A stretch of DNA of 64,000 nucleotides from Candidatus Woesearchaeota archaeon (GCA_016180135.1 JACPBV010000004.1:26868-90867); one strand, 5' to 3'; shown: positions 242-50,500, counted from the stretch's first letter. Translations and numbers: made by a program. Notes: generated by a model from the sequence alone, not told the origin.

Positions 242-248
242 TCGAATA

Positions 249-280
249 AACCTCCTAACCCCTAAACCTCCTAACCCCTA
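249..280. repeat. perfect 16-nt tandem duplication (aacctcctaaccccta x2) abutting the ATG at 281
   Basis: Read directly: 249-264 and 265-280 are identical. The tract is G-free. Confidence 0.8.
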
Positions 281-2002
281 ATGACTCCCATCATCCGCAT
301 AGGCAACGAGCTCCACCCCGTCTCCGGCATAGAAGGCTCCCCGAATGCCGAGATGATATTCCAGCACGCCCTGCTCAACGAAAACGAAAAGAGGGGGGAA
401 AGGGGGAAGGTCTCAGGAGAAAAGATCTTCAGCGATAAAAACCTTGGAGAGAAAACTGATAATTCAAAAATCCCCATGAAGAAATCACGGGAAGATGGAT
501 CCCAGGGAAATAAATCCCAATTTGAGTTTATAATGTTTTCAAGGCCGTTTTCCAAAGAGACAAAGCAGAAATGCCTCAATGATGCGTATGCCTCGGACAG
601 GGAGGTTTTGAACTTCCTCCTGTCCAGCGAAAGGTGGTATGGGCCGATGGTATCCAGCAAGGCCGAAGCCTGGGCTCTTATTCAAAACACCTATTTCATC
701 CCATGGACTTCTTTCGAAAGGCTTTGCTATTGGTTTGTAAAAAAATCATTTTTGAAAAGTTTTTTTTACGGGCTGCTGGCCATAAGCTACCATCGGAGAA
801 CTGCGTCAGCGATCCAAAAGCTCCGTCTCCAAGCTCCTATCATCCACCTGTATAACCGCCCGTTGGCATGGCTGATGAAACCGAAGTTGAAAGGCTGCAG
901 GCCGATTTTTGTTTTGGAGATGCAGAACAGCCATCTCGTGCAGAAGCATAGTATCTTCAAAGGCATCATTCAGAAATTGCTCAACAGTGCTGCTGCTCAG
1001 TTCAAAAAGATAATTTTTGTCAGCGATTTTCTCAGAGATGAGTATAGGGGAGAGTGTAAAGGAGAATGTAAAGGAGAATGTAGGGGAGAGTGTAAAGGAG
1101 AATGTAAGGGAGAGTGTAAGGAAGAGTGTAAAGGAGAATGTAAGGGAGAGTGTAAAACCGAATCTGCAGATGAAAAAATTGAAGAAAGCCGCCACAGCGA
1201 TTGCTCATGCTCACCTCATTTATCCCAATATTCCGTCGCATATAACGGAGTCTCAACAATACATCAGTATTTGGGAGCTCATCCTGCCTTATTGGCAGGA
1301 GATGGCCTGAGCCTCTCGCATTGGAAGTCCTCGCTGTTCCCGCAGTTGAAAAACCTCACTCCAGACACCAGCCTCCGCATCCTCTTCAGCGGAAGGATTG
1401 TGAGGGAAAAAGGCCTCCATATACTTTTGGATGCCCTCCGGCTTCTTGCTGATAGCCGGCAGAAAAGAAATTCGGTAAGGAAGAAGCAGATCCAGAAAAT
1501 AGAGCTGCGCATAGCCGGCTCGCCGTATTTTGGCAGAGAGGGAAGCTCCCCCTATGTTCGGGAAATCCTCCGGAAGATAAAGCAGCTTGAGCTGGAAAAT
1601 ATCAAGATAACCTTTATGGGATTCCTTGACAAATGCTCCCTCTCGAAGGAATACCTTGCGGCAGATATTCTCGTCGTTCCTTCATTATGGGACGAGCCCT
1701 TCGGCAACGTGGTTATCGAGGGGATGTATTTCAAATGCATTGTCGTTGCAGCAAGGAGTGGAGGGATTCCTGAGATACTAGAAAACAAAAAGACAGGATT
1801 CTTGGTCAGCAAAGGAAATGCTTCTGAGCTTTCCCGCCTGCTTGAAAATATCAGCCTGCGAACCCCAAGGGATGATGCCTCCCTTAAAGCCCTGGCCAGA
1901 AACGCAAAAAAGAGCGTTGAGCAGAAATTTCTGATGCAGCACCATTTCAGTGCCGTGATGGATGTTTACAGAGAGATTGTCAAAAATGAAACCTGGCGAT
2001 AG
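281..2002 (+). CDS. glycosyltransferase family 4 (GT-B, GT1-type C-terminal domain) with low-complexity insertions
   Basis: The C-terminal half has the classic GT4 pattern: RILFSGRIVREKGLHILLDAL ... ADILVVPSLWDEPFGNVVIEGMYFKCIVVAARSGGIPEIL..KTGFLV. The N-terminal start is uncertain. Confidence 0.8.
   Translation: MTPIIRIGNELHPVSGIEGSPNAEMIFQHALLNENEKRGERGKVSGEKIFSDKNLGEKTDNSKIPMKKSREDGSQGNKSQFEFIMFSRPFSKETKQKCLNDAYASDREVLNFLLSSERWYGPMVSSKAEAWALIQNTYFIPWTSFERLCYWFVKKSFLKSFFYGLLAISYHRRTASAIQKLRLQAPIIHLYNRPLAWLMKPKLKGCRPIFVLEMQNSHLVQKHSIFKGIIQKLLNSAAAQFKKIIFVSDFLRDEYRGECKGECKGECRGECKGECKGECKEECKGECKGECKTESADEKIEESRHSDCSCSPHLSQYSVAYNGVSTIHQYLGAHPALLAGDGLSLSHWKSSLFPQLKNLTPDTSLRILFSGRIVREKGLHILLDALRLLADSRQKRNSVRKKQIQKIELRIAGSPYFGREGSSPYVREILRKIKQLELENIKITFMGFLDKCSLSKEYLAADILVVPSLWDEPFGNVVIEGMYFKCIVVAARSGGIPEILENKKTGFLVSKGNASELSRLLENISLRTPRDDASLKALARNAKKSVEQKFLMQHHFSAVMDVYREIVKNETWR
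1047..1156 (+). repeat. in-frame 12-nt tandem repeat encoding (G-E-C-K/R)n inside the GT4 gene
   Basis: About 9 units of ggaga(a/g)tgtaa(a/g) translate to RGECKGECKGECRGECKGECKGECKEECKGECKGECK. They lie between the two Rossmann-like halves. Confidence 0.85.
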
Positions 2003-2229
2003 TAATCTTCCTCAACTTTATGCTGAAGTCGGGGATTTAGCCGGGAAGTAGTATGGTGCGCTCTGTTGTTCAGGTAATGCAGCAAAGAGGCAGGTGTATG
2101 TGCACAGTTTTTTACGTCTTACTTTTCTTGTGCCCATAACTTCTGATCTGGTCAATAATCAAGCCCGAGAACAAGATATCTCTCCATCACGCCAGATTTT
2201 ATAGCCCCTCATTCAATCTTAAAATAGGG

Positions 2230-3135
2230 TTATTCCCCAGAACCGCCATCCAGCCTCAACACTGCCGACATTACAGCCCCCAACCCATAAGCCAGCGCAG
2301 TCATCAGCGCTATTACTGTTCCTGCTGTAGAAGGATCGATATGCAGCGATGTGAGCATCACAAAAAGCGCAGACTCCCTCAATCCCAATCCAGAAAGCGT
2401 GAAGGGGACAAAAGACAGCAGCGTCGCAGTGTTGAACACCACCACCAGCATAAAAAAAGGCGCCTTTCCGCCAATCGCATAAAAAAGCAGCAGGGGAACA
2501 AGCCCGCCGACCGCTATTTTTGAGGCAGTAAATATCAGATTGAGCGCCAGCGCCTTCCTTCCGACAGTAAAATACCCTTTCAAAGTCCTGTAGAAGCCGG
2601 TGAACTGCGCATCATACTTTCCCAGCAGTCTTTTTCGGACAAATTTTCTGGCCTTTTCCGATGCCAGGAAAAAACCCCCCAGCGCAAGAGCCGCAGCTAA
2701 AAGAAAAAAGAGCCCCAAAGCCTGCCCCGGAAGGAAAAGATAAGCCCCGATTATTGCAATCAGAAGGGTAAAAAAAAGTGAAGTGATTTTATTTGTGATG
2801 ATTGCCGCCAGGCTTTCTCCGATAGTAAGCCCCCGTTTCCTGAAATAGGGGATGATAATAAGGTCGCCTGCCCTGCCCGGCAGCAGAAGCCCTGCGCTCC
2901 AGGAGTAAAGATACCCTTGGATAGTTCCCTTCAGCGAAACTTTGGGAAACTGGCTTACAAGCACAAAGAGGCTCATCCCGTCGATGAGCAGTGTTGCGAT
3001 GATGGCTGCGGCAGCTAAAAAGAGCAGCAGCAAATCTCCCTTCCCTAAAATCTCCAGAACTTCCGCAGCCCCAACTTTAAAAAAAAAGAATGCCAGCAGG
3101 GCAGCGCTGACGGTCAGCTTGATCCAGAGTTTCAT
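2230..3135 (-). CDS. flippase-like / LPG-synthase-TM (UPF0104) family membrane protein
   Basis: Polytopic. MKLWIKLTVSAALLAFFFFKVG...LLPGRAGDLIIIPYFRKRGL is typical of this family. I trimmed the ORF-track start (3429) to Met99 (3135), because the upstream 98 aa lie in a degenerate repeat and run into the neighbouring gene. Confidence 0.65.
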   Translation of the reverse strand: MKLWIKLTVSAALLAFFFFKVGAAEVLEILGKGDLLLLFLAAAAIIATLLIDGMSLFVLVSQFPKVSLKGTIQGYLYSWSAGLLLPGRAGDLIIIPYFRKRGLTIGESLAAIITNKITSLFFTLLIAIIGAYLFLPGQALGLFFLLAAALALGGFFLASEKARKFVRKRLLGKYDAQFTGFYRTLKGYFTVGRKALALNLIFTASKIAVGGLVPLLLFYAIGGKAPFFMLVVVFNTATLLSFVPFTLSGLGLRESALFVMLTSLHIDPSTAGTVIALMTALAYGLGAVMSAVLRLDGGSGE

Positions 3136-3169
3136 GGTAAGAGGTTTTATCTTCTGGGAAATCCATCTC

Positions 3170-3290
3170 AACAGTAATCTTCTTCCGATGGGCGCATTCT
3201 CCCGATGGAAGGGTGTCTCAACAGGAATCTTTTTCCTGTGAAATGCTCCCTTAATAGGAATCTTCTCCCGCTGGAAAGGCTCTCCCGAAG
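3170..3290. repeat. degenerate ~33-nt tandem repeat in the spacer between two minus-strand genes
   Basis: Minus-strand units are ttccagcgggagaagattcctattaagggagca / tttcacaggaaaaagattcctgttgagacaccc / ttccatcgggagaatgcgccc.... Identity is about 50-60 percent by eye. Confidence 0.35.
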
Positions 3291-3296
3291 GAAAAT

Positions 3297-4208
3297 TTAT
3301 CTTTTCAGCATATCCGCTAAAAAGCCAAACAGCGTTATCTGGATTCCCGTCATGATGAACAGCGCGCTTAAGATGACCCTTGGGATTCCGCCGACATTCC
3401 CTGCAGTCAGGACAGAATACACTATCCACGCCCCGAGAACTATCCCCAGTCCGATAAAGAACATCCCCACCGCCCCGAAAAACTTCAGTGGCTCATAATC
3501 CCTGTAGATGCGTAAGATATTCATTCCGGCCCTCCCTGCATAGGAGAAAGGATTGCTTATCAGCCTGCTCTTATCCTTCCTTCGTGCGAAATGCACGGGC
3601 ACCTCAGCTATTTTAAGCTTTTGCTTTACTGCCCGGATGATCTGCTCCTGGGTGTAAGTGTGGAGAGAATAAACTGGCAGTCTCGCAGCCTCCGCAGTGA
3701 ACGCCCTAAACCCAGTCTGGCTGTCAGTTATCTTCTTCCCTGCGATGCCCGACACAACCATCGAAAAAGCCTTATTCCCGAATCTTTTCACCAAAGGCAT
3801 GCTTTCAATATGCCCCGTAAAGCGTGAGCCTAACACCAGATCAGCTTTCTTCTCAATAATCGGCCTGAGCAGCGAAGGTATGTCTTTTGCCAGATACTGC
3901 CCGTCAGCGTCGATGTGGACGATGATCTCAGCCCCCAGCCGTAAAGCTTCCTTCATCTCAGTCCTGAACGTCTCCCCTAACCCCTTATTTGTAGGATGAG
4001 AAACCACCTTTGCCCCGAGGCCAAGCGCAATCTTTCTCGTGTTATCCTTGCTCCCGTCATCAGCAACGAGGATGATTGCCTGAGGCAATATTTCCCTGAT
4101 GCCAATGATTGCATTGCCGATAGTCTTCTCTTCATTAAATGCAGGGATAGTAACAACTATCCTGGGATTTTTCCCGCCCATAAATTTCTCCGCTTTCTCT
4201 CCGCCCAT
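3297..4208 (-). CDS. GT2 glycosyltransferase, dolichyl/polyprenyl-phosphate sugar synthase-like, with C-terminal TM helices
   Basis: VVTIPAFNEEKTIGNAI...LVADDGSKDNT...HIDADGQY matches the GT-A DxD-type pattern, and there are two C-terminal TM segments. The start is set at Met22 (4208), so a TATA-like box at 4231-4238 lies 23-30 nt upstream. Confidence 0.8.
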   Translation of the reverse strand: MGGEKAEKFMGGKNPRIVVTIPAFNEEKTIGNAIIGIREILPQAIILVADDGSKDNTRKIALGLGAKVVSHPTNKGLGETFRTEMKEALRLGAEIIVHIDADGQYLAKDIPSLLRPIIEKKADLVLGSRFTGHIESMPLVKRFGNKAFSMVVSGIAGKKITDSQTGFRAFTAEAARLPVYSLHTYTQEQIIRAVKQKLKIAEVPVHFARRKDKSRLISNPFSYAGRAGMNILRIYRDYEPLKFFGAVGMFFIGLGIVLGAWIVYSVLTAGNVGGIPRVILSALFIMTGIQITLFGFLADMLKR

Positions 4209-7970: not shown

Positions 7971-9884
7971 ATGTGCGGCATAGCTGGAATTTACAGCCTC
8001 AGCGGAAAGGAGGCACCCTCAGCAAGAGTCATCACAGAGATGGCAGACTCCATGGCTCATCGTGGCCCTGAAGATTCGGGGATCTATCTCGGCAAAGGGA
8101 TAGCATTTGGCCACAGGAGGCTTCGCATCCTTGATTTGTCAGAGAAAGGAAAGCAGCCGATGATGGACAGGGAAAAGGAGATAGTGATAACCTTCAACGG
8201 CGAAATTTACAATTTCCGGGATATCAGGGATGAGCTTATCAGCCTGGGATATTCTTTCTCTTCAGCGTCTGACACTGAAGTGATCCTCAGCGCTTACCGG
8301 CAGTGGGGGATTGAATGCATCCAAAGGTTCAACGGCATGTTTGCCTTTGGACTTTACGACGGGAGGAAGCAGAAGCTTTTTCTTGTGAGGGACAGGCTTG
8401 GGAAAAAGCCGCTTTACTATTCCATTGTGGATGGCGCTCTTATATTCGCTTCCGAAATTAAGGCGATTTTGAGATATCCTCATTTTGTTGCTGAGCCAAA
8501 TTGGAAAGCTATCTCTTCATATCTTTCTTTTAGGTATGTCCTCGGGAAAGATTCTTTCTTTAGCCGCATAGTAAAAGTCCTTCCCGGCCATTATCTTGAG
8601 ATCTCCGGCGGTAAGATTGATGAAAAAGAATATTGGGATATTCCGCTGGTTGCGAAAAAGGGTGATAGGGGCATAGCCTATTACAAAGCATCAATTAGAG
8701 AAAAATTAACCAGGGCAGTGAAGCTGAGGATGGTCAGTGATGTCCCTCTGGGGGCTTACCTGAGCGGCGGCCTTGATTCCAGCATAATTGTTGCCCTGAT
8801 GGCGCAGCTTACAGGAAAAGTGAGGACGTATTCTGTCGCATTTGACGTTGAGGGATATGATGAGCTGCAGTATGCTAAGCTCGTCGCAGAAAAGTTTAGC
8901 ACGGAGCACACGGAAATCAGGCTGAAGGCAGGAGACTATATGGGGGCGATGAAAGAGCTTATCAGATTCAAAGATGAGCCTCTTGCGGTCCCGAATGAAG
9001 TTCCCATCTACCTCATGTCAAAAGTGCTGAAAAAAGACATCACTGTTGTCCTCTCAGGGGAAGGCTCTGACGAGCTTTTCTATGGGTATGGGAGGCTTTT
9101 CAGGAGCCCCTTTGACTATGCCCGGCTGAAGATGCTTCCTGCAGGCCTGAGGAATTTATTTCTGAAATCTCTCGGAAAGAAATATGGCAGTAAATCATTC
9201 TCTTCTGAGATGGAGCATTTCCTTCACCTCTACAGCTATTTCCCGAATGGGGAGAAAAACAGCCTGTTCAATCCTTTTATGAAGTCGCTGTGCCGTGACG
9301 ATGAGGGCCTTCATGCGCTTTTCCGGAAATATTTTGACAGGGCGGAAAATCTAAATTATTATGACAAGATCAGCTATGTGTTTGAGAAGATCCACCTCGT
9401 CGGCCTTCTCGGAAGGCTGGATAATGCGACGATGGCTGCCGCTGTGGAGGCAAGGGCACCCTTTGTTGACCATGAGCTTGTCGAGTTTATGTTTAATGTC
9501 CCAAAAAAATACAAGCTGCACTGGAAGTCTGCTTTTTCTTTCTTCAGAGGTTTGCTCAAAAATTCTGACGAGATCAGCGAAAACCTGGATATCACCAAAT
9601 GGATATTAAGGGAAGCATTTAAGGATGATGTCCCCGAAAAGATTATCAGCAGGAAAAAACAGGGATTTCCTGTCCCGCTTGACGCATGGTTCAAGGGAAA
9701 ATTCATCAGCGACGCAAAGAAGTATCTTCTTGGCCCCGAAGCAAGGATAAGAAAGATTATTGACCAGCAGAATCTTGAATCATGGATAAACAGAAACCTT
9801 AATAACAGCGCAGGCACCTCCTTCGGTCAGAAAGTGTGGATGCTGCTGAATGTCGAAATATGGTTAAGGGAGTATTTTGGATGA
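7971..9884 (+). CDS. asnB: asparagine synthase (glutamine-hydrolysing) family amidotransferase
   Basis: The N-terminal MCGIAGIY has the catalytic Cys2. The PP-loop SGGLDSS is present. Length (637 aa) and C-terminal region are typical of AsnB. Confidence 0.9.
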   Translation: MCGIAGIYSLSGKEAPSARVITEMADSMAHRGPEDSGIYLGKGIAFGHRRLRILDLSEKGKQPMMDREKEIVITFNGEIYNFRDIRDELISLGYSFSSASDTEVILSAYRQWGIECIQRFNGMFAFGLYDGRKQKLFLVRDRLGKKPLYYSIVDGALIFASEIKAILRYPHFVAEPNWKAISSYLSFRYVLGKDSFFSRIVKVLPGHYLEISGGKIDEKEYWDIPLVAKKGDRGIAYYKASIREKLTRAVKLRMVSDVPLGAYLSGGLDSSIIVALMAQLTGKVRTYSVAFDVEGYDELQYAKLVAEKFSTEHTEIRLKAGDYMGAMKELIRFKDEPLAVPNEVPIYLMSKVLKKDITVVLSGEGSDELFYGYGRLFRSPFDYARLKMLPAGLRNLFLKSLGKKYGSKSFSSEMEHFLHLYSYFPNGEKNSLFNPFMKSLCRDDEGLHALFRKYFDRAENLNYYDKISYVFEKIHLVGLLGRLDNATMAAAVEARAPFVDHELVEFMFNVPKKYKLHWKSAFSFFRGLLKNSDEISENLDITKWILREAFKDDVPEKIISRKKQGFPVPLDAWFKGKFISDAKKYLLGPEARIRKIIDQQNLESWINRNLNNSAGTSFGQKVWMLLNVEIWLREYFG

Positions 9885-10020
9885 GATGCCCGGGGAGCAC
9901 AGCCGCCCCCTCACATCAAAAAACCAATCAACCATCACCACCACCATCACCCCCTCAACCAATACCCCCTCACCCATTAATCAATCAATTAACCAACAAA
10001 TCTAAAACGCCTCTGAAAAA

Positions 10021-10758
10021 ATGAAAGCGATACTCTTATCGGCAGGAAAGGGAACAAGGATGTTGCCTTTGACGAAAAATACCCCCAAATGCCTTTTGCA
10101 TGTCGGCAATGGGTTGACGGTGCTGGAAACTCAGCTGGAGACTCTGAAAAAAGCCTCAATAAAAGATATTTGTATTGTTACTGGCTATTTATCTGATCAG
10201 GTTGAGGCAAAAGTCAGGCCTTATGAAAAGGACCTGAATATCAGGATAATCTATAACCCGTTCTATGATATCTCCAACAACCTGGTCTCCCTGTGGACAG
10301 CCAGCAGCCAGATGGACGGCGATTTTATGATCATCAACGGCGATGACCTCTTTCAGAAGTCAGTCATTGAAAAGCTTCTTGCTGTAAAGAGCAGTAGGTG
10401 CATGGTCATCGACCAGGAGCCTCCCTATCGGGAGGGAGATATGAAAGTCGAGATAGCCGGCGGCAGGATTGTCCGTGTCAGCAAGCAGATTCCCTCAGAA
10501 AAAGCAGCAGGAGAATCTATCGGCATGATGAAATTCACCAACGGCTCAAACAAACTCATCCAGGCAGTGCTGGACAAGATGGTCAGGAAAAAAGAAAATC
10601 TCCAGTCATTTTACCTGGAAGCCGTCAACGAGCTGATCAAGGAAGGCCATACTTTAGATTTTATCGCTATCCCGGCAAAAGACTGGGCAGAGATTGATTT
10701 CCATCCGGATTATGAGTTAGTGATGAAGAATATCGATGGGTTCCATAGGGGGATGTGA
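10021..10758 (+). CDS. sugar/alcohol-phosphate nucleotidyltransferase (LicC / IPCT-like NTP-transferase family)
   Basis: MKAILLSAGKGTRMLPLTKNTPKCLL is the G-rich NTP-transferase signature. The C-terminal WAEIDFHPDY resembles cytidylyltransferases of the LicC/IPCT type. Confidence 0.8.
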   Translation: MKAILLSAGKGTRMLPLTKNTPKCLLHVGNGLTVLETQLETLKKASIKDICIVTGYLSDQVEAKVRPYEKDLNIRIIYNPFYDISNNLVSLWTASSQMDGDFMIINGDDLFQKSVIEKLLAVKSSRCMVIDQEPPYREGDMKVEIAGGRIVRVSKQIPSEKAAGESIGMMKFTNGSNKLIQAVLDKMVRKKENLQSFYLEAVNELIKEGHTLDFIAIPAKDWAEIDFHPDYELVMKNIDGFHRGM

Positions 10759-10794
10759 AAACTTTTTTCTAATAAAACCTTACTCTCCAAATAT

Positions 10795-10828
10795 TATTTC
10801 CACGCCTTTATCATCCAGCTCCCGCCCC
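10795..10828. repeat. 34-bp perfect direct repeat, copy 1 (flanks the PIN/AbrB cassette)
   Basis: tatttccacgcctttatcatccagctcccgcccc is identical to 11553-11586. Confidence 0.9.
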
Positions 10829-11242
10829 TTTATCGTGCTCAATTCTTGAAAGAAATTCCGCAGGCGTCAGGATAGAAACTCCCTGGTATTGTTTTAGTTT
10901 GAGAAGGTGCCTGTCTCCAGTCACAATGAACTCTGCCTTTGCGGCAATTGCGCAGGACAGCACCTTGTCATCCTTAGGGTCTTCTTGGACAGCAATAACT
11001 TGGATGGTAGGTTCGATTATTGTTGAAATTGTTTTGAAAAGGCTTATCTGACGTTGGATAAACTCTTCAGGCACATCAAAGTCCCTTTTTTGGCTTTCTT
11101 CCATCTCCAAAAGCATCTCTGGTGAGGTAAAGCTGCTGATCTGCTGCTGGAGCGCAAGCCGGACAATGGCGTGGGGTTTTCCTAGCTCCCAAAAAATTGA
11201 AGAGATCAGGATATTGGTATCCAGCACAACCCTTTCAGGCAT
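10811..11242 (-). CDS. PIN-domain toxin (VapC-like)
   Basis: VVLDTNILISS (N-terminal acidic Asp) ... FIVTGDRHLLKL... matches the PIN_3-type pattern. It lies immediately downstream of an AbrB-type antitoxin. Confidence 0.8.
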   Translation of the reverse strand: MPERVVLDTNILISSIFWELGKPHAIVRLALQQQISSFTSPEMLLEMEESQKRDFDVPEEFIQRQISLFKTISTIIEPTIQVIAVQEDPKDDKVLSCAIAAKAEFIVTGDRHLLKLKQYQGVSILTPAEFLSRIEHDKGAGAG

Positions 11243-11243
11243 C

Positions 11244-11504
11244 CTAAGCCCCTCTGCCCCGATGGATTTTTTTGACTACTGCTTCTTCATCTTTGATTCC
11301 CTTTTGCTGTGCAAATTTTTGCCCCCAGCGGGTAAGCTCTTGAAATTCCTTCTCAAGTTCAGTCATATTCATCTTTTTTATCACCACTGCATCACGTATT
11401 GTGCTGATGGCAACAGCAGTTCCTGGCATCAGGTCTAGCTCATTGCGGATTTCTAGGGGTATTACTACCTGCCCTTTAGTTGAAATCTTTGAAATTTCAG
11501 TCAT
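11244..11504 (-). CDS. AbrB/MazE/SpoVT-family antitoxin
   Basis: ISTKGQVVIPLEIRNELDLMPGTAVAIS is the swapped-hairpin AbrB motif. The start is moved to Met29 (11504) to avoid running into the upstream methyltransferase gene. Confidence 0.75.
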   Translation of the reverse strand: MTEISKISTKGQVVIPLEIRNELDLMPGTAVAISTIRDAVVIKKMNMTELEKEFQELTRWGQKFAQQKGIKDEEAVVKKIHRGRGA

Positions 11505-11551
11505 GGTAGTCCTCAAGTTGGAAAGTAATACTTTCTTACTTAAAAAACTTC

Positions 11552-12337
11552 CTATTTCCACGCCTTTATCATCCAGCTCCCGCCCCATATTTTCTCAAGC
11601 TGCCGCACAAGCCATTTATTGGGAAATTTGTCCCCGAGGGAATTGATCAGTGGCCTCCGCCAGACTTTAACTCTGCTGAACTGGGTGAACAGCCTTTTGA
11701 TTCCGGCTTTGGTATACACCCTTACCAAGGGCACATTCCCTTCAACTTCATAATGCTTATGGACGATTTCGCTCCAGCTGAGCCTGAAAAATTCCCCGCG
11801 CAATATCCCGTGCCACAGCGGAAAAAATAAGTAATACATCCACCCCCGTGCATAAAGCATGATGACTGCGCTCTTCCCCGGCTTTAAAGCGCGGTGAACT
11901 TCATTGATCGCTTTTCGTGTGTCCGGCGTATGGTGCAGAACTCCAAAGCTGTAGGCAAAATCAAAGGTATTGTCAGGAAACTCAAGATGCTCTGCATCCA
12001 TCCTTTTGAAATGCCCCCTCAACCCGTAGAGCTTGAATCTTTTTGCAGTAGTCTCGATGGCATTCTGGGTCAGATCGACCCCGTAAACTGCCGCGCCATG
12101 CTTCGCAAACATCAGGCTGTCGGTCCCGATGCCGCAGCCGACCTCCAGGATCTTCTCCCCGGCATGCCTGTTGAATTCTGCATCGCTGAGCAGGAAAGGA
12201 TATTGGGTGGTGAACCTCACCCGCTCCACCTCGTCATAGTATTCTTTGGTGCCGGCTTCCTTTTGAGAATACCACCGCTGGGGCAGTTTCCCTTCCCAGT
12301 ATCCCCTGATATTTTCCTTGTCTTTTACCGGCTTCAT
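11552..12337 (-). CDS. class I SAM-dependent methyltransferase
   Basis: ILEVGCGIGTDSLMFAKHGAAVYGVDL (motif I) and FDFAYSFGVLHHTPD are present. Confidence 0.8.
   Translation of the reverse strand: MKPVKDKENIRGYWEGKLPQRWYSQKEAGTKEYYDEVERVRFTTQYPFLLSDAEFNRHAGEKILEVGCGIGTDSLMFAKHGAAVYGVDLTQNAIETTAKRFKLYGLRGHFKRMDAEHLEFPDNTFDFAYSFGVLHHTPDTRKAINEVHRALKPGKSAVIMLYARGWMYYLFFPLWHGILRGEFFRLSWSEIVHKHYEVEGNVPLVRVYTKAGIKRLFTQFSRVKVWRRPLINSLGDKFPNKWLVRQLEKIWGGSWMIKAWK
11553..11586. repeat. 34-bp perfect direct repeat, copy 2 (covers the last codons and stop of the methyltransferase gene)
   Basis: Identical to 10795-10828. On the minus strand it encodes ...GGSWMIKAWK-stop. Confidence 0.9.
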
Positions 12338-13473
12338 TCCTTTAAAACCTCATCGTAAAGCTCTGAAAACTTCTTCTCCTGAATAGGGTAGTCCCATGAA
12401 TGCATGAGCTCCTGAAGCTCTCTCCCATAGCGCATCCGGAGATTTTTATCAGCATAATAAATTTCAAGATTGGATGCCAGCTTTTCAGCATCTCTCGGAA
12501 GATGATACAGCGCAAGCCCTTTAAAAACTGTCGTAAATGCGCCGATGTCAGAAAGGCAGAGCGCAATCCCGGAAGCAGCTGCTTCATACACCGCAATTCC
12601 CTGGGCTTCGGGGTCTGAGGAATTGACAAAGACATCGGAAAGATGATGAACTTCCCTGACTTCTTCTGTTGTGAGCGAGCCTGCCAAGGTTACACTATCC
12701 TGCAGCCCCAGGCTGTCAATCGCTTCTCTCACGGATCTCGGCCCCGGCTGCGTTTTCTGCTCTCTGAACATCTCGCTCTGGAGCATATCCTTCCCTGCCA
12801 GTATCAGGTGTGATTTCGGGTATTGGAAATGGAATTTTTTGAAAGCCTCCAGGATGATATCAATATTCTTGAACTTCCTGAAATTTGCGACTGTGCATGC
12901 GATGAAATCCCCTTCATGAAAACCGTATTTTGCTGCCAGGGATTTTTTATCGGTGGATATCTTCCGGGAGAAGTAAGCATAGTCAATTGCGCATGGCAGC
13001 AGCGCAACCTTCCTTGGGTCAAACCCTTCTTTAAGGTAGATCTCCATTTCATAGGGAGTCTGCGCAATAACTCTGTCATATCGCTTCATGCAGAGCTTTG
13101 AGATCCATGCGATGAGACTGTTGGAGCCGAGGATATAGGTTGAAGGTGTGATGATCCTTTTCTTGTTGAACAGAAATCCTGCAAGAAGTGAAGGGAGAAA
13201 AGGCCGTAAAAAAGAATGTATCATCTTGACATCCTTGTCCCAGAAAAGATTCCAGAGCATCGAAAGCGTGCTGGTATATCTTCTGACTTTGAACCCATGC
13301 ACTTCCTGTTCCGCAGGCAGCCCCTTTTCCGTAAGTGTTGCGATCTCGGCGTCAAAGCCCTTCTGCTGCATGATCACCAGCTTTCTCTCGATATAGTTCT
13401 CAGTAGGCAGGATTTGGTCAGTGCATGCGCCGGGATAGGCGCTTACAATCTTGATAAATTTCGGCTTCCCCAT
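12334..13473 (-). CDS. glycosyltransferase family 4
   Basis: The C-terminal domain reads LILAGKD...VTLAGSLTTEEVREVHHLSDVFVNSSDPEAQGIAVYEAAASGIAL. A 4-nt overlap links it to the downstream methyltransferase gene. Confidence 0.8.
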   Translation of the reverse strand: MGKPKFIKIVSAYPGACTDQILPTENYIERKLVIMQQKGFDAEIATLTEKGLPAEQEVHGFKVRRYTSTLSMLWNLFWDKDVKMIHSFLRPFLPSLLAGFLFNKKRIITPSTYILGSNSLIAWISKLCMKRYDRVIAQTPYEMEIYLKEGFDPRKVALLPCAIDYAYFSRKISTDKKSLAAKYGFHEGDFIACTVANFRKFKNIDIILEAFKKFHFQYPKSHLILAGKDMLQSEMFREQKTQPGPRSVREAIDSLGLQDSVTLAGSLTTEEVREVHHLSDVFVNSSDPEAQGIAVYEAAASGIALCLSDIGAFTTVFKGLALYHLPRDAEKLASNLEIYYADKNLRMRYGRELQELMHSWDYPIQEKKFSELYDEVLKE

Positions 13474-13501
13474 AGTTTCCTCTCGGAAAAATCCCTCTGC
13501 G

Positions 13502-13509
13502 TTTATAAA
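13502..13509 (-). promoter_or_regulatory. TATA-like box (tttataaa) 29-36 nt upstream of the GT4 ATG at 13473
   Basis: Read on the minus strand. Spacing is typical for an archaeal promoter. Confidence 0.4.
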
Positions 13510-13619
13510 TTATGCAGAAAAAACCGGCCAAATAGGCACTGCTTGCGGGGTAACCGGGACGTTGCATAACTTATTTTTACTCATAGCGCAGGTTTACTGT
13601 CCCGCACCCAAAAAACCCG

Positions 13620-14687
13620 CTAAGACATCGAATACATTGCAGCCTTTGCAAGCTGCGCAGGAGTTGAATAGATCGTGTTTAACGCCTCGCAGTCAGTCCA
13701 GCAGGAGCATTTCTCATTGGCGATGAACACTCTTGCGCTTTTCGCTTCCTCGGAATTCAGCACTTCAGCAAAAGTTTTGTCCTTGACATTCCCCAGCTTC
13801 TTGCTCAGCATGATGCAGGGGTAGATGTTCCCGTAGGGGTCGAGGAAATAGCTGTTGAATCCTGAATAGCATGGCAGCGGCTGTTTTTCAGGATGATCAA
13901 GATACCTGTCCCGGTAATACCTGTAAAAAAGGTTCATCGGCTGCTCCCGGATCAAAGTGGAAAATATATCCTTGACTTTAGGCATATCTTTCTCATCGAC
14001 AAACAGCTTGGTGGAGATGGTCTTATAGTAGATTGCAGAGCTTTGCGCCAGCCTGGTTGAAAAAACCACCCCAAGCTCACGGGCAAGCTTATGGACGTTG
14101 AGCACCTCATTGATGTTGTCCTTGCTGATCGTGTTGCTGATCCCGATGGTCAGCCTTTTGTCCTGCTTCTGAAGCTCCTGCAATGCCTTAATAGTCTTGA
14201 TGGCCTGCTGGAACGAGTCCTTGATGCCCCGCATAGTGTTGTGAACTTCCTCAAGCCCGTCGATGGAGATGCTCGCCCCAAGCTCATCAAAATGGTCCAT
14301 CGCAAGCATCTGTTTGTAAGCCTCGATGATTCTCCCCGTCAGCTGCCCATTGGTGGAGATAGTGATCCTTTTTGCCTTTACCGCCTTCACGATCTCGACG
14401 ATATCCTTCCGGAGAAACGGCTCCCCGCCGGTGATTCCCAGCGTGAGCAAATCAGGGATCTGCCCAAAAAAATGCTGTATCTGCTCCAGGCTCATTTCCT
14501 GCCGCAGAAGCGGCCTGTCTCTTTCCTCGAGATAAGTCTTCCAGATGTTGCAGAATTGGCACCTGAACCCGCAGTCATAGGTTATCGCAAAATTCATATT
14601 CCTCACCTGCAGGGGCAGGCCTAATGTCTTTCTGGCATAATGCCCTACCGATTGTGAAATCAGTTGGAGTTTGTTCATGTGCTTCAC
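13620..14687 (-). CDS. radical SAM enzyme with C-terminal SPASM/twitch-like Cys cluster
   Basis: CGFRCQFCNIW gives the CxxxCxxC motif, followed by GGEPFL. The C-terminal Cys set is PCYSG...YPCIM...KCSCWTDC. Confidence 0.85.
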   Translation of the reverse strand: MKHMNKLQLISQSVGHYARKTLGLPLQVRNMNFAITYDCGFRCQFCNIWKTYLEERDRPLLRQEMSLEQIQHFFGQIPDLLTLGITGGEPFLRKDIVEIVKAVKAKRITISTNGQLTGRIIEAYKQMLAMDHFDELGASISIDGLEEVHNTMRGIKDSFQQAIKTIKALQELQKQDKRLTIGISNTISKDNINEVLNVHKLARELGVVFSTRLAQSSAIYYKTISTKLFVDEKDMPKVKDIFSTLIREQPMNLFYRYYRDRYLDHPEKQPLPCYSGFNSYFLDPYGNIYPCIMLSKKLGNVKDKTFAEVLNSEEAKSARVFIANEKCSCWTDCEALNTIYSTPAQLAKAAMYSMS

Positions 14688-14961
14688 AAGCTTAAAAGAT
14701 ATCCAGCCATATAAATCTTCCTAAAACTTGACTATCGTTAACTAATTCCCGATATGGCCTCTTGAGATGGCTCCGGCCATTTTAGGGGATAGGGGGCGGT
14801 GAAGGTTGGTGTGATGGAAAATTTGAAAAATGGAATTGCTGCCAAGTCCCGGCCAATCTCAAAATCAATAAATTCTTCCCTCATTACACTCAATGTCATC
14901 AATCCTGATCCACAATCAATTCATCCCAAAATCAAAAAATTCTTCCCCCCTTCCCATTCTT

Positions 14962-15657
14962 CTAATCAATTCCCCGGGCATGCTTATATCCATAATAAGC
15001 GATATATCCTACCCAGACAAGGTTGAAGTAAACGGCATAAAACGCAAGGAAGATGTCAAGCCTCTGGGCAGCAGCTGAAATGCTCAGGATATGCAGCTGG
15101 ATGTCATAATCAAGAAAAAAGAGAAACATCCACACCAGCGGGTTTTTCTTAAGGTTGTCTTTCACCATATCTGTCTCGCTGTGCCCGGGATAATAGATAT
15201 CTGACGTCAGAGAGAGAAAGTGGTAGAGGTATTTCCCAAAGATATAGCTCAGCGTAAGATACAGTATTGCAGGATTCCCCGAAGTCTGAAAAAGCGAAAC
15301 CCCTATGGCGATGGCCCAGATATTGACAACAATCCTGTCTCCTGCCCGGTCAATCCATCCGCCAAAGTTTGACTTCATGCTTGTCAGCTTCGACAGCATC
15401 CCATCGGCCACATCAAGCGCATGGAACCATTGCACAAGGATGGCAAAAATGATAAGGGCAGCAGGCGTATGGGCACTGAGTAATATCCAGCCGGCAGCTG
15501 CGCTGGAGATGATATTGAACAGAGTGACCATATTAGGAGTGATTGGCGTCTTTGCAAGAATCCCTGCAAGAAACTCCCCGAATGGCTCGACGTAATATCG
15601 TGCCAGCGGATTCCACACAACCCTCCTGCCGCCGATGACTTTATCCATAGCCCCCAA
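14962..15657 (-). CDS. CDP-alcohol phosphatidyltransferase family membrane protein
   Basis: DVADGMLSKLTSMKSNFGGWIDRAGDRI fits D-x2-D-G-x(n)-G-x3-D-x3-D, with Ser-Lys in place of the usual Ala-Arg. About 6 TM segments. Confidence 0.7.
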   Translation of the reverse strand: MGAMDKVIGGRRVVWNPLARYYVEPFGEFLAGILAKTPITPNMVTLFNIISSAAAGWILLSAHTPAALIIFAILVQWFHALDVADGMLSKLTSMKSNFGGWIDRAGDRIVVNIWAIAIGVSLFQTSGNPAILYLTLSYIFGKYLYHFLSLTSDIYYPGHSETDMVKDNLKKNPLVWMFLFFLDYDIQLHILSISAAAQRLDIFLAFYAVYFNLVWVGYIAYYGYKHARGID

Positions 15658-15690
15658 GATTTAGGGGCGGTTTAAAAGCTTTATCCTCTG

Positions 15691-29078: not shown

Positions 29079-29230
29079 GAAAATTTCAACAACATCGGCG
29101 AGGCGAGGGAGGGCCGCCCTCCGTCCGCAGACCGGAACGCTGGATTATCCCTCCGTCCGCAGACCGGAACGCTGGATTATCCCTCCGTCCGCAGACCGGA
29201 ACGCTTTTTTTTCCCTCCGTCCGTTTTCTC
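29079..29230 (+). repeat. family-A element, copy A3: 5-prime half only, followed by tandem expansion
   Basis: It starts gaaaatttcaacaacatcggcgaggcgaggg as other A copies do, then runs into 32-nt tandem units. No gttgttgaaattttc 3-prime arm is present. Confidence 0.6.
29117..29223 (+). repeat. perfect 32-nt tandem repeat (ccctccgtccgcagaccggaacgctggattat), 2 full units plus 24-nt and 11-nt partial units
   Basis: Units read directly at 29117-29148, 29149-29180 and 29181-29204, then T8, then ccctccgtccg. Confidence 0.9.
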
Positions 29231-38562: not shown

Positions 38563-38631
38563 GATACCCAAACAAGATACCTCAACAAGATACCCAAACA
38601 AGATACCTCAACAAGATACCCAAACAAGATA
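38563..38631 (+). repeat. 13-nt tandem array (gatacccaaacaa / gatacctcaacaa alternating, 5 units plus a partial) starting right after the ArsR stop codon
   Basis: Units read directly. The effective period is 26 nt, about 2.6 copies. Confidence 0.85.
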
Positions 38632-47211: not shown

Positions 47212-47502
47212 TTGGCTTCAAAAGAAGGCATGGAGACGGATGTAGACAGAGTTCTTGCTAGTGTCAGGAAGAAGCGTTTGCTGATGGAAGTCGAGGTCAA
47301 GGGCCTCATCGAGAAGAAGGAAGAGGAAATTTCCATCCCCTTAAGCATTTTCTCGGAGAGATTAGGCATGCTTGAGTCTATCGTTCATTATCTCAGGGAT
47401 TCTCATGGGCTTTCTTTTACAGAGATTGCAGGGCATCTAAAGCGGGACTACAAGACAGTCTGGGCGACATATCAGCAGGCAAAGAAAAAGTATAAGCGAT
47501 GA
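47212..47502 (+). CDS. small helix-turn-helix protein (sigma-70 region-4 / LuxR-like HTH), translationally coupled to the giant ORF
   Basis: LGMLESIVHYLRDSHGLSFTEIAGHLKRDYKTVWATYQQAKKK looks like an HTH. The stop overlaps the giant-ORF ATG (ATGA at 47499-47502). The start may be TTG 47212 or ATG 47230. A TATA-like ctttataaac lies at 47181-47190. Confidence 0.55.
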   Translation: MASKEGMETDVDRVLASVRKKRLLMEVEVKGLIEKKEEEISIPLSIFSERLGMLESIVHYLRDSHGLSFTEIAGHLKRDYKTVWATYQQAKKKYKR

Positions 47503-50500
47503 AACAATCCAGCAAAGTTAAGGAAATCAGCGCAGGCATAAGGGAGCTCAGGCTCTCAGGGAAAAATGCCGATAATGCCAGAAAGAGCTATGCAAGGCTG
47601 CTGGAAGCCTTGCTTCAGGAAAAAGAAAAACTGCAGTCTCATCTCAGCAAAGGGATTCTATCAGAGCAGAACTATGATCAGATTCTCCAGGAAAATCTTG
47701 ACGGCAAAACCAGGATGCAATGGATTGCCTATTGTGAAAATATCCTTGGCAGCGCAGATTCCAAAAAACAGCAGTATCGCCGATGGGTCGGAGTTCTTGA
47801 GGACGACATTGGCCGGATTAAACGATCTTTCAGGAAGGGAAGCATCTCCCAGGAAGCATACCATCATCTCCTGAACCAGAAGATTGAGGGAAAAACCAGG
47901 GAAGGATGGATTGTATCCGCAAAAATGGCGTTGTATGGTCTGGAAGAGGGTGAATCCCTGGCGGGCGCTCAGGGAATTTTAAGCCGCAGCGCATCGTCAG
48001 TAATCAGAGCATCAAAATCGCTGCTAGAAGAGAAAAAGGAACTCCTCGTTAACACCGCCCCTATAATATTGATGCTCTTGCTTCTCAGCCTCTCAGCTTT
48101 TTTTATCAGCCCGGCGCACACCGGATTTGCAGTCATAAGCATAGAGAATGGATTTGAGGATTCCTTAAACCTCTCCCTCAACGGGTCATCCTCATTCCTC
48201 TGGGCCCCGGCCAGCCACGGAATGATAACGAACATTGCAGTCAGCGGAAGGCTTTCAAAAGGTGCCGGAGCAAAAATCTACCTCGAAAAGGCCGGCAGGC
48301 TTTATCTGCTCCTTGATACTGAAGCTGGCTTGAAGACAGAAACAGTTTTGCAGGAAATTCCCGGCATTGCTGCTGGAATCAGTTCCCTCCCGCAGCAAAA
48401 GATCCCCCTCACCGGAGAGATTGAAAACCTATCTGTTGCCCTTATCGGCTCAGGGCCAGTTCAATCAGCAAATGATATATTTAAATTCGGCTTGAAGCAA
48501 AGGGCAGGATTAGACAACAGCTCTTCAGTCCCTGATGAGAACTTCTGCGCACTATGGAAAGTGAACAATGTTTCGGCAGAGTGCTATGGAAATGCTGACT
48601 GCTGCAGTTTTGCGGGCCTCGAAGCCAGTGGCTCCTGGAATGATACGTTCTACCTGTATTCCGGAAGATTCAGCGCAAAGAAAGACAATCTCATTGAGCC
48701 AATCCTTATCTCTTACGATGTCAATCTGAGCATCCCGAAGTCCGATATTAGGATTTCCTCCGCAGTTGCGGAAGCCCATTTTGCGGATGAGCTGGAGAGA
48801 TTCAGCCTTGCATGCATGGAAACGTGCAGCGGCCTGGAGTTTAACGAATCGCGATACTCTCTTGTTGTCTCTTTGGCAATTGGCTCGCTCATCCTTGACA
48901 GCATCTCTTACAAAATGGCCGAAAGCTATAACGTATCAGAAAATTCCCCTCTGCTCCAAAAGAACATCTCTAATGTGTCGCTCTACCAAAACGAAAACAT
49001 CACGTTAAGCCTTAATGATTTCTTTGCCGATGCAGACTCCGATGCGCTGGTATACTATGCTTATCCTGCAGAAAATATCAGCTTTTCTTTTTACCAGGGG
49101 AACATCACCGTCATCCCTGATAAGGATTTCCTCGGCAAAGCATCAACATTTTTTACTGCCTCAGACGGCTTTTTTAATGCCACTTCAGGAATAATTGATA
49201 TTGAGGTTGCTGAAAAGCCGCTCCTCCCGGCTCAGGTATCGGTCACCCAAACTCCCATAAAACCCAAGGTAAGGGTCAATGAGCCGGTGAAATGGGTTAC
49301 AAGAGTTAATTCCACCAGGAAAGTCATAAACCTCACGATGAGCCTGGCGCACGGGGCTGAGAACATCTCCGTCAGAGAATTGACTCAGGGCAGCATTGAT
49401 ACCTCAAGAGTCATTGATACATCCAAAGTGATTGATACATCCAAAGTGATTGATACCTCAAGAGTCATTGATACTGCTGGATTCATGAATCTTAAATCAG
49501 TATTTGTCAGCGAGCAGGGCCAGACTAAAAACCTCTCGCTCTATAATGCCGAAAAGTATTTGGCCAGGCTTGAATCCAGGGAGGAGATGCTTATTGAAAC
49601 CAAAAGGGGAAAGATTAAAAATGACCCGACGGAAATTGAAGCTCTGAAATCTCTTAACACCCAATTGCGTGATGTTGAAAACGAGAAAAACCGGATTACA
49701 GGATTTGTTGTTGCCCAAAGAGGGCAGAAAGGCATTATAACCCGATTTTTTGAATGGCTCATCCAATCAGACCTCGTCGGATTTGCCATCCTCAACGCCC
49801 CATTAGCTCCAATCACCACTCCCTCCACTAATCTCATCCCCACCCCCACAACTAATCACGCCACTAACTCCTTCCCCACTCCCTCCACTAATCTCATCCC
49901 CACCCCCACAACTAATCTTGAAGAGCCTGGCGAAAATGCCCATCCCCCAGTATTGACGATTGCCGAGGGGATTAAAGAAGCCGAGATTACTTATTTCACG
50001 GAAGCTCCGGTTGCCGAGGAATTCAATCTGTCAGAGTCAGGCAAGCGCATTATCATCAGCTCAGACATCCACTATGAAAACATTACGGCTTTCACTTACC
50101 TCCCCGGCGAATATGCCTCTTCAGGCATCCATCTGTATTGGATGAAAAACGGCTCAAGGGAAGAGGTAAATTTCACAGCATTTGATGAAAACAATAACGG
50201 CAGGATTGATTATATCGAATGGATCATCCCCTCGTTGTCAAACCAGACATATGATCTCTCCCTCACCATCATCACACTGAAGAGTTATCCTATCATTGGA
50301 AGAAACTGGACGACAGAGTTTAATGTTTCCGGCACAGCAAACCTCACGATCACTGCAGTCAACAGCACAAGTTTTGGCCAGGTCTACGTTGACAATTTCT
50401 CCTCGGAAGACGACCTCTATCTCAGGGAACTGAAATGCGGTAATCTCACCGTATGGAACAACGGCACAAATTATTCATCAGGCAATGTTTTCTTCGTCCT

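What the first reader, a model, noticed from the sequence alone, without database searches (positions are those of the whole stretch)
1047..1156. (Gly-Glu-Cys-Lys)n tandem repeat inserted in a GT4 glycosyltransferase
- Nine to ten 12-nt units encode RGECKGECKGECRGECKGECKGECKEECKGECKGECK.
- The array sits between the N- and C-terminal Rossmann-like halves of an otherwise ordinary GT4 enzyme.
- A regular array of about 10 Cys in a cytoplasmic enzyme is unusual. It could bind metal, be redox active, or simply be a tolerated expansion.
- The same gene is preceded by a perfect 16-nt duplication (249-280). It also has a second low-complexity insertion near its N-terminus (NENEKRGERGKVSGEK...).
Basis: seen in the sequence. 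Interest (0 to 1): 0.6.

Follow-up and report, generated by a model that had tools for sequence, protein, structure and literature searches.

The report
Cysteine repeat inside an archaeal glycosyltransferase
A small groundwater archaeon has a sugar-transferring enzyme whose surface loop was stretched by a recent stutter of DNA into nine copies of Lys/Arg-Gly-Glu-Cys; the repeat is real but most likely a tolerated accident in a repeat-prone genome, not a new functional device.

Summary
Window 1046-1153 is nine in-frame 12-nt units (three 36-nt super-units) encoding (K/R-G-E-C)9 inside one 573-aa ORF (281-2002). Contigs from six groundwater metagenome runs (two studies, 2017 and 2020) match it exactly, with depth that fits the assembled copy number.

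The host protein is a divergent but catalytically intact GT-B/GT4-type glycosyltransferase in a surface-glycan cluster of a DPANN (Woesearchaeota) genome. Five orthologs have a 9-10-residue loop at this site; the window has 62 residues. A same-genus ortholog has a different 12-nt repeat (HxSN, about 4.5 units) in the same loop.

AlphaFold2 predicts the insert as disordered. It lies in a helix-to-strand loop before the last strand of the N-terminal domain, not in the inter-domain linker.

The unit resembles the native codons just upstream (RDEY to RGEC; Tyr to Cys is one A-to-G change). The genome carries about 350 tandem-repeat arrays in 1.5 Mb.

My best reading is a tolerated slippage expansion (confidence about 0.6). 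Metal or redox function (about 0.2) and radical-SAM targeting (about 0.05) are not excluded. The array only borderline-matches the NCBIfam "Cxxx repeat" model, and the genome has no cognate maturase.

The parts
281..2002 (+). Glycosyltransferase gene (573 aa, P0001): GT-B fold, GT4-like, with two lineage-specific disordered inserts
   Evidence: Single ORF. Pfam Glycos_transf_1 at residues 358-543, 102.6 bits against a cut-off of 26.4. AF2 pTM 0.84. Foldseek top hits are HepE, MshA, BshA, PimA and GlgA, with target TM-score up to 0.78.
1046..1153 (+). Tandem array: nine 12-nt units (three 36-nt super-units) encoding (K/R-G/E-E-C)9. The strand has no C, and all inter-unit differences are A<->G.
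   Evidence: TRF; codon table and composition G47 A45 T18; the 36-nt copies differ by 2+2 transitions, 2 synonymous and 2 not; unique in the genome.
1154..1231 (+). Non-repetitive remainder of the loop expansion (KTESADEKIEESRHSDCSCSPHLSQY), with 2 more Cys and 2 His. The first unit, KTES, may be a decayed tenth repeat.
   Evidence: Absent from P0002 and P0074-P0076; pLDDT below 50 up to about residue 305; 5 of 12 mismatches to the unit.
1034..1045 (+). Native codons AGA GAT GAG TAT (RDEY, the conserved end of helix 249-257). Probable seed of the repeat unit (AGG GGA GAG TGT).
   Evidence: 8 of 12 identical and in phase. Only about 1.2% of 12-mers in this gene or genome are that close to a unit. 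E254 and Y255 are invariant in the three full-length orthologs.
377..520 (+). Second lineage-specific low-complexity insert (residues 33-80, Lys/Glu/Gly/Ser/Asn-rich, no Cys) in the loop between helix 1 and strand 2
   Evidence: Missing in P0072/P0073, P0002, P0074 and P0078; coil with pLDDT 41-58.
247..281 (+). Perfect 16-nt direct duplication (TAAACCTCCTAACCCC x 2.2) filling the 39-nt spacer between the asnB-like stop codon and the GT start codon
   Evidence: TRF 100% match; the 16-mer occurs only here in the 1.51-Mb genome.
1694..1720 (+). EX7E motif (E472-E480) of retaining GT4 enzymes. Together with GRIVREKG (R372, K377) it shows the catalytic half is intact.
   Evidence: Motif scan. E472, E480, G371, R372 and K377 are invariant or nearly invariant in the 69-sequence alignment.

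Best explanation
The array is a young coding minisatellite. Replication slippage amplified a 12-nt unit, first to three units and then as a 36-nt block to nine. The unit derives from the enzyme's own codons at the end of an N-domain helix (RDEY to RGEC, with Tyr to Cys by one A-to-G transition). This stretched a 9-10-residue surface loop to 62 residues. The loop joins a helix to the last beta-strand of the N-terminal Rossmann-like domain. That is the edge of the sheet facing away from the catalytic cleft, so a disordered insert there is tolerated. The enzyme keeps its donor-binding motifs and presumably still works as a retaining glycosyltransferase in a surface-glycan pathway. The regular spacing of the Cys residues follows from amplifying a unit that happened to contain one Cys codon; it does not show that a metal site was selected. 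What is shown: the repeat, its frame, its absence from orthologs, its place in the predicted fold, its disorder, the repeat-rich genome, and the same sequence in independent samples. What is inferred: the slippage origin, the position away from the cleft, and the lack of a dedicated function.
For: Five orthologs have a 9-10-residue loop at the site, while a same-genus ortholog (gene neighbourhood kept) has an unrelated degenerate 12-nt repeat, CAT NNN TCT AAK, in the same loop, so the loop is a hotspot that accepts repeats. A second disordered insert sits in another helix-to-strand loop of the same domain. In the AF2 model (pTM 0.84), residues 258-311 are coil with pLDDT below 50 while the flanks are confident. 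The GT4 fold and motifs are intact. The in-phase flanking codons match the unit at 8 of 12, against a background of about 1.2%. The genome has 350 non-overlapping TRF arrays in 1.51 Mb, many of them in-frame peptide repeats, plus a 16-nt duplication right at this gene's start. After the 36-nt triplication only four substitutions are seen, 2 synonymous and 2 not, so there is no purifying-selection signal on the peptide. The array DNA is unique in the genome.
Against: The array is the only Cys-periodic repeat in the genome, and the only Cys-dense stretch in a protein without a signal peptide or TM segment. The congener's repeat at the same site also puts a metal-ligand residue (His) at period 4. 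The same (GECK)n peptide arose independently with other codons in unrelated proteins, once directly beside His-rich runs. The sequence is identical in samples taken years apart, so it is not visibly unstable. Neutrality is a default inference; nothing tested here rules out a function.
Confidence: 0.6

Rival explanations
1. The array is a functional thiolate module: a genetically encoded, metallothionein- or phytochelatin-like (Glu-Cys)-containing loop. It would bind soft metals (Zn, Cu, Cd), or act as a redox buffer or switch, on a cytoplasmic glycosyltransferase.
For: The 62-residue loop holds 11 Cys, 2 His and 16 acidic residues. Glu-Cys dipeptides recur as in synthetic (Glu-Cys)n metal-binding peptides (PMC4292183, found). 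The congener has His at period 4 in the same loop. An unrelated secreted protein (L024) joins six perfect GECK units to HTEHGGHHHHGE-type His runs. TGT is invariant in all nine units.
Against: The array has only CxxxC spacing and none of the CxC, CxxC or CC motifs typical of metallothioneins. With only four post-expansion substitutions, Cys invariance is expected by chance (about one chance in three). Five orthologs manage with a 9-10-residue loop. AF2 gives no ordered structure. No metal-handling genes lie in the neighbourhood.
Confidence: 0.2
2. The array tunes the enzyme through its length. Changes in copy number (always in frame) would alter acceptor access or membrane docking and so diversify the surface glycan between lineages.
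For: The gene lies in a surface-glycan cluster. The loop differs in length and sequence between the two congeners. The GT evolves much faster than the neighbouring rSAM gene: about 40-44% identity against 70% between the same two genomes.
Against: No copy-number variant was seen in six runs from two studies. The unit is a multiple of 3, so no on/off switching is possible. From Rossmann-fold topology the loop should lie on the side away from the cleft (inference).
Confidence: 0.08
3. The Cys-every-fourth-residue loop is a substrate of the radical SAM/SPASM enzyme encoded 11.6 kb away (window 13620-14687, minus strand). The model for this is the 'Cys-Xaa-Xaa-Xaa repeat radical SAM target' proteins, or the rSAM-matured HxS-repeat effector HxsA.
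For: The array scores 19.0-20.0 bits on NCBIfam TIGR04114 (tSAM_targ_Cxxx), whose cut-off is 20, with E about 1e-3. An rSAM/SPASM gene is in the same cluster, and its 70%-identical ortholog is found only in the genome that also has the GT ortholog. The congener's loop reads H-x-S at each unit, and rSAM maturation of a full-size HxS-repeat protein is documented (PMC13128918).
Against: The rSAM is not of the CXXX-repeat maturase family: TIGR04115 gives 32.5 bits against a cut-off of 350, a level control genomes also reach. TIGR04117 gives 12.7 bits against 50. The congener's His repeat matches no NCBIfam model. In both genomes the rSAM sits beside a CDP-alcohol transferase-type gene, which suggests small-molecule chemistry. 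Other genomes with GECK arrays lack the maturase. Co-occurrence within one genus is uninformative.
Confidence: 0.05
4. The repeat is an assembly artefact, or the gene is broken into two halves here.
For: Short-read de Bruijn assemblers break inside the array.
Against: All contig pieces from six runs tile the array with 0 differences, and depth fits the assembled copy number. The array is 108 nt, shorter than typical reads. There is one continuous ORF whose two sides align in the same frame to orthologs.
Confidence: 0.02

Closest known systems
Lineage-specific low-complexity or tandem-repeat insertions in surface loops of otherwise conserved enzymes (coding minisatellites; compare low-complexity regions discussed in PMC3140889)
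   Same: It is an in-frame short-unit repeat, predicted disordered, placed in a loop that varies among orthologs, and young judging by unit similarity. It sits in a genome with many such arrays.
   Different: The unit carries Cys, giving a regular nine-thiol array in a cytoplasmic enzyme. The host is a DPANN archaeon. I found no report of this motif.
NCBIfam 'Cys-Xaa-Xaa-Xaa repeat radical SAM target' proteins (TIGR04114 repeat, TIGR04117) with the CXXX-repeat maturase TIGR04115
   Same: Cys sits at every fourth residue in tandem. The score is at the edge of the repeat model's cut-off. An rSAM/SPASM gene is in the same cluster.
   Different: The array is an internal loop of a 573-aa enzyme, not a small precursor. 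No TIGR04115-class maturase is in the genome. TIGR04117 is far below its cut-off.
Synthetic phytochelatins, (Glu-Cys)n-Gly peptides, and metallothioneins
   Same: The array has repeated Glu-Cys dipeptides and a high thiol density (PMC4292183 and PMC11191002, found).
   Different: The Glu-Cys pairs are separated by Lys-Gly, so the spacing is CxxxC and not CxC. The array is embedded in an enzyme, and no metal binding has been tested.
Retaining GT-B / GT4 glycosyltransferases (HepE 4XSO, MshA 3C4Q, BshA 3MBO/5D00, PimA 2GEJ, archaeal GlgA 3L01)
   Same: The two-Rossmann fold, the Glycos_transf_1 domain, and the EX7E and GRxxxxKG motifs.
   Different: The N-terminal half is very divergent: no Pfam N-domain match, extra helices at residues 92-180, and PVSGIEG in place of the usual Gly-Gly loop. 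It also has two disordered inserts of 48 and 52 residues.
Secreted myxobacterial PF27846 proteins with CxGxCxGx arrays, and other GECK-bearing proteins (Prevotella DUF2023 tail; Muribaculaceae secreted Cys/Lys/Glu-rich protein; L024)
   Same: They share period-4 Cys with Gly, Glu and Lys between, and in places the identical GECK peptide.
   Different: Those are C-terminal tails or extracellular proteins (likely disulfide-bonded), use different codons (GGC GAG TGC AAG in L024), and are not homologous to this protein outside the repeat.

Membership tests
GT4-type retaining glycosyltransferase (GT-B fold) | C-terminal Glycos_transf_1 domain above Pfam's gathering score | tested here: met
   PF00534 at 102.6 bits (cut-off 26.4), residues 358-543; PF13692 at 84.6 bits.
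GT4-type retaining glycosyltransferase (GT-B fold) | EX7E motif and the Arg/Lys donor-phosphate motif (GRxxxxKG) | tested here: met
   E472-x7-E480 and GRIVREKG (R372, K377) are present. These columns are invariant or nearly invariant in 69 aligned GT4 proteins.
GT4-type retaining glycosyltransferase (GT-B fold) | Two Rossmann-like domains; N-terminal domain of the GT4 type | tested here: met
   AF2 pTM 0.84. Foldseek alignments span both halves, with target TM-scores of 0.66-0.78 to HepE, MshA, BshA and PimA. By sequence alone the N-domain is not recognised (Glyco_transf_4 E 0.16).
GT4-type retaining glycosyltransferase (GT-B fold) | Glycosyl transfer activity, donor and acceptor | not testable with these tools
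   This needs an enzyme assay. NCBIfam equivalog models are all far below their cut-offs, so specificity is unknown.
CXXX-repeat radical SAM target system (TIGR04114/TIGR04117 + TIGR04115) | Tandem repeat with Cys at every fourth position that passes the repeat model | tested here: inconclusive
   There are nine CxxxC units. TIGR04114 gives 19.0 bits (75-aa segment) and 20.0 bits (62-aa loop) against a cut-off of 20. The model has 18 low-complexity positions.
CXXX-repeat radical SAM target system (TIGR04114/TIGR04117 + TIGR04115) | Cognate CXXX-repeat maturase (TIGR04115) encoded in the genome or nearby | tested here: not met
   The best hit in the genome is 32.5 bits against a cut-off of 350, and 10 of 14 control genomes give similar generic hits. 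The local rSAM/SPASM best matches the PTO1314 family, at 92.9 bits against a cut-off of 306.
CXXX-repeat radical SAM target system (TIGR04114/TIGR04117 + TIGR04115) | Target is a small dedicated precursor protein (TIGR04117-like) | tested here: not met
   TIGR04117 gives 12.7 bits against a cut-off of 50. The array is an internal loop of a 573-aa enzyme.
Metallothionein / phytochelatin-like metal-binding peptide | Dense Cys in CxC, CxxC or CC arrangement, and demonstrated metal-thiolate clusters | tested here: not met
   The sequence shows only CxxxC spacing plus one CSC. Metal binding itself is not testable with these tools.
Phase-variable simple-sequence contingency locus | Repeat-number changes that shift the frame or promoter spacing, with copy number polymorphic in populations | tested here: not met
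   The unit is 12 nt, so the frame is always kept. No length variant appears in contigs of six runs from two studies. This is contig-level only; rare variants are not excluded.

The most novel reading that the evidence does not exclude
(GECK)n is a portable, ribosomally encoded thiolate module, a natural counterpart of synthetic (Glu-Cys)n phytochelatins. It has arisen repeatedly (in this archaeal enzyme loop, in C-terminal tails in Bacteroidota, and beside His-rich runs in a secreted bacterial protein). In this glycosyltransferase it would bind metal, or act as a redox or rSAM-modified switch, coupling surface glycosylation to metal or redox state. The congener's His-period-4 repeat at the same loop would be a convergent solution.
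Probability: 0.15. Interest if true: 0.55.

Novelty: new member of a known kind. Interest (0 to 1): 0.25.

Why it matters
As read here, it is a clean natural example of how a repeat-prone, small archaeal genome builds a long disordered insert in an enzyme out of the enzyme's own codons. It also shows which loops of the GT-B fold accept such inserts, which helps annotation (the insert hides the domain boundary) and loop engineering of GT4 enzymes. If the minority reading were right, it would add a very simple encoded metal- or redox-active peptide module that could be grafted onto enzymes. It would also give a testable case of convergent Cys and His period-4 repeats at one site.

Tried and rejected
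- Assembly artefact or split gene: rejected.
- Dispersed element: the array DNA and the 16-mer occur only at this locus.
- Purifying selection on the peptide: only four post-expansion substitutions, 2 synonymous and 2 not, so no signal either way.
- Allelic length variants: the exact protein is not in the 15-billion-protein collection or its gene index. The metagenome and genome contig scans found only unrelated GECK-bearing proteins, not alleles.
- RNA evidence: no RNA run holds the gene.
- rSAM link: tested from both sides. The maturase family is not met, the HxS model gives no hit, and other genomes with GECK arrays lack the maturase.
- Literature: no paper contains the GECK repeat string. 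The paper I recalled as describing the CXXX-repeat class (Haft and Basu 2011, from memory) could not be retrieved, so what I say of that class rests on NCBIfam model names only.
- An eight-sequence ortholog alignment was too divergent for the contig scan.
- Antisense and +2-frame ORFs across the array (806-1195 minus strand, 1017-1310 plus strand) are by-products of a stop-free repeat and have no support.

Full report
**Observation**

Window 1046-1153 consists of nine in-frame 12-nt units, AAR/AGG GGA/GAA GAR TGT, encoding [K/R]-[G/E]-E-C. TRF reports period 12 x 9.0 copies (score 146) and a stronger period 36 x 3.2 copies at 92% identity (score 195). The 110-nt stretch contains no C at all (G47, A45, T18). 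Every difference between units is an A<->G transition, and TGT is invariant. The three 36-nt copies differ by 2 + 2 substitutions, two synonymous and two not (K/R and G/E).

The array lies inside one continuous ORF, 281-2002 (573 aa, P0001).
- A perfect 16-nt duplication at 247-281, unique in the genome.
- An N-terminal low-complexity insert at residues 33-80.

**Is it real DNA?**

The locus is held by at least six groundwater-metagenome runs from two studies (2017 and 2020). Their k=31 contigs break inside the array, as expected for a 36-nt super-repeat, but every piece matches the window with 0 differences. The 33-nt unitig whose 31-mers occur twice in the assembled array (at 1089 and 1125) has roughly twice the flanking depth (ratios 1.4-2.6). 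No alternative joints were reported. The assembled copy number is therefore right and the same in all samples. Only contigs could be examined, not raw reads, so rare length variants cannot be excluded. No RNA run holds the gene.

**Organism and neighbourhood**

The window carries an archaeal SRP RNA. The genome is 1.51 Mb in 44 contigs and 88% complete. The congener's ortholog is on record as a GT4 protein of "Candidatus Woesearchaeota archaeon". Earlier notes of this scan also call the genome Woesearchaeota/DPANN.

The gene sits in a surface-glycan cluster, in this order:
- GT4
- AsnB-like protein
- this GT
- LPG-synthase-TM protein (convergent)
- GT2
- an unknown protein
- Wzx-like flippase
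- a second AsnB
- nucleotidyltransferase
- methyltransferase
- another GT4
- radical SAM/SPASM protein
- CDP-alcohol phosphatidyltransferase
- DUF2079

**The host protein**

- Pfam recognises only the C-terminal Glycos_transf_1 domain (residues 358-543, 102.6 bits). The N-terminal half gives at best E 0.16 to Glyco_transf_4.
- AlphaFold2 on a 69-sequence alignment gives pTM 0.84 and a two-Rossmann architecture.
- Foldseek's best matches are retaining GT4 enzymes (HepE, MshA, BshA, PimA, Pyrococcus GlgA). The alignments cover both halves, with target TM-scores up to 0.78.
- The EX7E motif (E472-E480) and GRIVREKG (R372, K377) are intact.
- There is no signal peptide or TM segment (maximum Kyte-Doolittle 1.3).

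It is most likely an active, cytoplasmic or peripheral retaining glycosyltransferase. Its specificity is unknown, since all NCBIfam equivalog models fall far below their cut-offs.

**Where the insert sits**

An exhaustive profile search of 1.84 billion cluster representatives found only about six clusters of true orthologs. Between the conserved ...F-L-x-x-E-Y and S-I/V-A-Y-N-G-L-S, five of them have 9-10 residues (for example GSKNRKSCKS, MARNKRAPKQ). The window has 62.

In the model the insert follows helix 249-257 and precedes strand 317-319. Residues 258-311 are coil with pLDDT below 50. It is thus the helix-to-strand loop before the last strand of the N-terminal domain, not the inter-domain linker, which begins after YNG.

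In Rossmann-type folds the ligand-binding loops are at the C-terminal ends of the strands, and the helix-to-strand loops lie on the opposite edge (established knowledge). I therefore infer that both this insert and the first one (helix 21-37 to strand 81-88) face away from the catalytic cleft. I could not inspect coordinates.

**A hotspot, not a one-off**

The same-genus genome G001 has an ortholog with the gene neighbourhood kept (convergent LPG-synthase-TM gene). At the same loop it carries HASNHQSNHISKHKSGHAS, encoded by a degenerate 12-nt repeat, CAT NNN TCT AAK, of about 4.5 units. That unit is unrelated in sequence to the window's.

The genome as a whole has 350 non-overlapping TRF arrays in 1.51 Mb, many of them in-frame peptide repeats in long ORFs.

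The in-phase 12-mer just upstream of the array, AGA GAT GAG TAT (RDEY, the conserved helix end), matches the first unit, AGG GGA GAG TGT, at 8 of 12 positions. Only about 1.2% of 12-mers in this gene or genome come that close. Tyr (TAT) to Cys (TGT) is one A-to-G change, the only kind of change seen in the array.

This supports a simple history. Slippage duplicated the helix-end codons, a few transitions created K/R-G-E-C, the unit went to three copies, and the 36-nt block then went to three.

**Function**

Nothing found requires a dedicated function. Four substitutions cannot show selection, and one Cys-bearing unit among dozens of coding repeats is unremarkable. The rivals are still open:

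- Metal or redox module. The loop has 11 Cys and 2 His. It is the only Cys-dense segment in this genome outside giant surface proteins. The congener's repeat puts His at the same period. The identical peptide array has arisen elsewhere with other codons: a DUF2023 protein tail in Prevotella, a secreted Cys/Lys/Glu-rich protein in Muribaculaceae, a 97-aa protein tail, and a signal-peptide protein of a high-GC bacterium with six perfect GGC GAG TGC AAG units followed by HTEHGGHHHHGE. Secreted myxobacterial PF27846 proteins have related CxGx arrays. Because those searches were seeded with the repeat itself across hundreds of millions of contigs, recurrence alone is weak evidence.

- Radical SAM target. 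The array scores 19-20 bits on NCBIfam TIGR04114, "tSAM_targ_Cxxx" (cut-off 20). An rSAM/SPASM gene lies 11.6 kb away. However, that enzyme is not of the CXXX-repeat maturase family (32.5 bits against 350, as in control genomes), and TIGR04117 fails. The congener's His repeat matches no model, although it visually recalls the HxS repeats of the rSAM-matured HxsA (PMC13128918). The rSAM keeps its CDP-alcohol-transferase-type neighbour in G001. Other genomes with GECK arrays lack the maturase.

**Verdict**

The most likely reading is a tolerated, slippage-born coding minisatellite in a permissive loop of a divergent GT4-type enzyme (confidence about 0.6), with metal or redox function the main rival (about 0.2). 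It is a new instance of a known kind of feature, of modest interest.

Noticed in passing
window 247-281: A perfect 16-nt direct duplication (TAAACCTCCTAACCCC x 2.2) fills the 39-nt spacer between the asnB-like stop codon (239-241) and the GT start codon (281). It is unique in the genome. It contains CCTCC (the same sense as the anti-Shine-Dalgarno sequence, not its complement), so it offers no ribosome-binding site on this strand.
   Followed up: partly
L005 (G001:C32) 996-2588, minus strand; repeat at about 1800-1860: The same-genus ortholog carries a degenerate 12-nt repeat, CAT NNN TCT AAK, encoding H-x-S-N/K about 4.5 times, in the same loop as the window's GECK array. His falls at period 4 and an H-x-S motif in each unit. 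It matches no NCBIfam model.
   Followed up: partly
G000 C20:9743-12832, minus strand (outside the window): A 1030-aa ORF starts with a long His-period-4 acidic array (HQEE HDDK HQDG HQEG ..., about 15 units). A hydrophobic segment follows, and the C-terminal part contains an HSMGG (GxSxG-type) motif. It is another ligand-residue period-4 repeat in the same genome.
   Followed up: no
whole genome G000: Tandem-repeat density is very high: 350 non-overlapping TRF arrays (score 50 or more) in 1.51 Mb. Many are in-frame peptide repeats, for example (ETGSGG)7, (GNIQS)7 and (IRSDEA)13.
   Followed up: partly
window 47499-62465, plus strand: A giant 4988-aa ORF has right-handed beta-helix/NosD-like repeats (about residues 1525-1710) and a Laminin_G_3/ConA-like domain (3432-3580). 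It also has Cys-dense stretches and several internal tandem repeats (49394-49474, 49812-49918, 60626-60745). It is probably a surface protein. Two further ORFs of more than 2000 aa lie upstream on the contig (C44:1-9336 and 9158-15685).
   Followed up: partly
L024 (Ga0180429_10030884) 2688-3800, plus strand: A signal-peptide-bearing protein of a high-GC bacterium has six perfect GGC GAG TGC AAG (GECK) units directly followed by several His-rich runs and a long Glu/Lys/Arg-rich, probably helical, tail. It has no Pfam family and looks like a candidate periplasmic metal-binding protein.
   Followed up: partly
window 13620-15657 and L029 (G001:C115): The radical SAM/SPASM gene and its CDP-alcohol phosphatidyltransferase-type neighbour stay adjacent in the same-genus genome (70% identity for the rSAM). 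Other relatives have only paralogs of about 30% identity. The best NCBIfam match is the uncharacterised PTO1314 family, far below its cut-off.
   Followed up: partly
window 29117-29223 and 38563-38631: Two non-coding-looking tandem arrays (32 nt x 3.3 at 94%, and 26 nt x 2.7 at 100%) were not examined.
   Followed up: no
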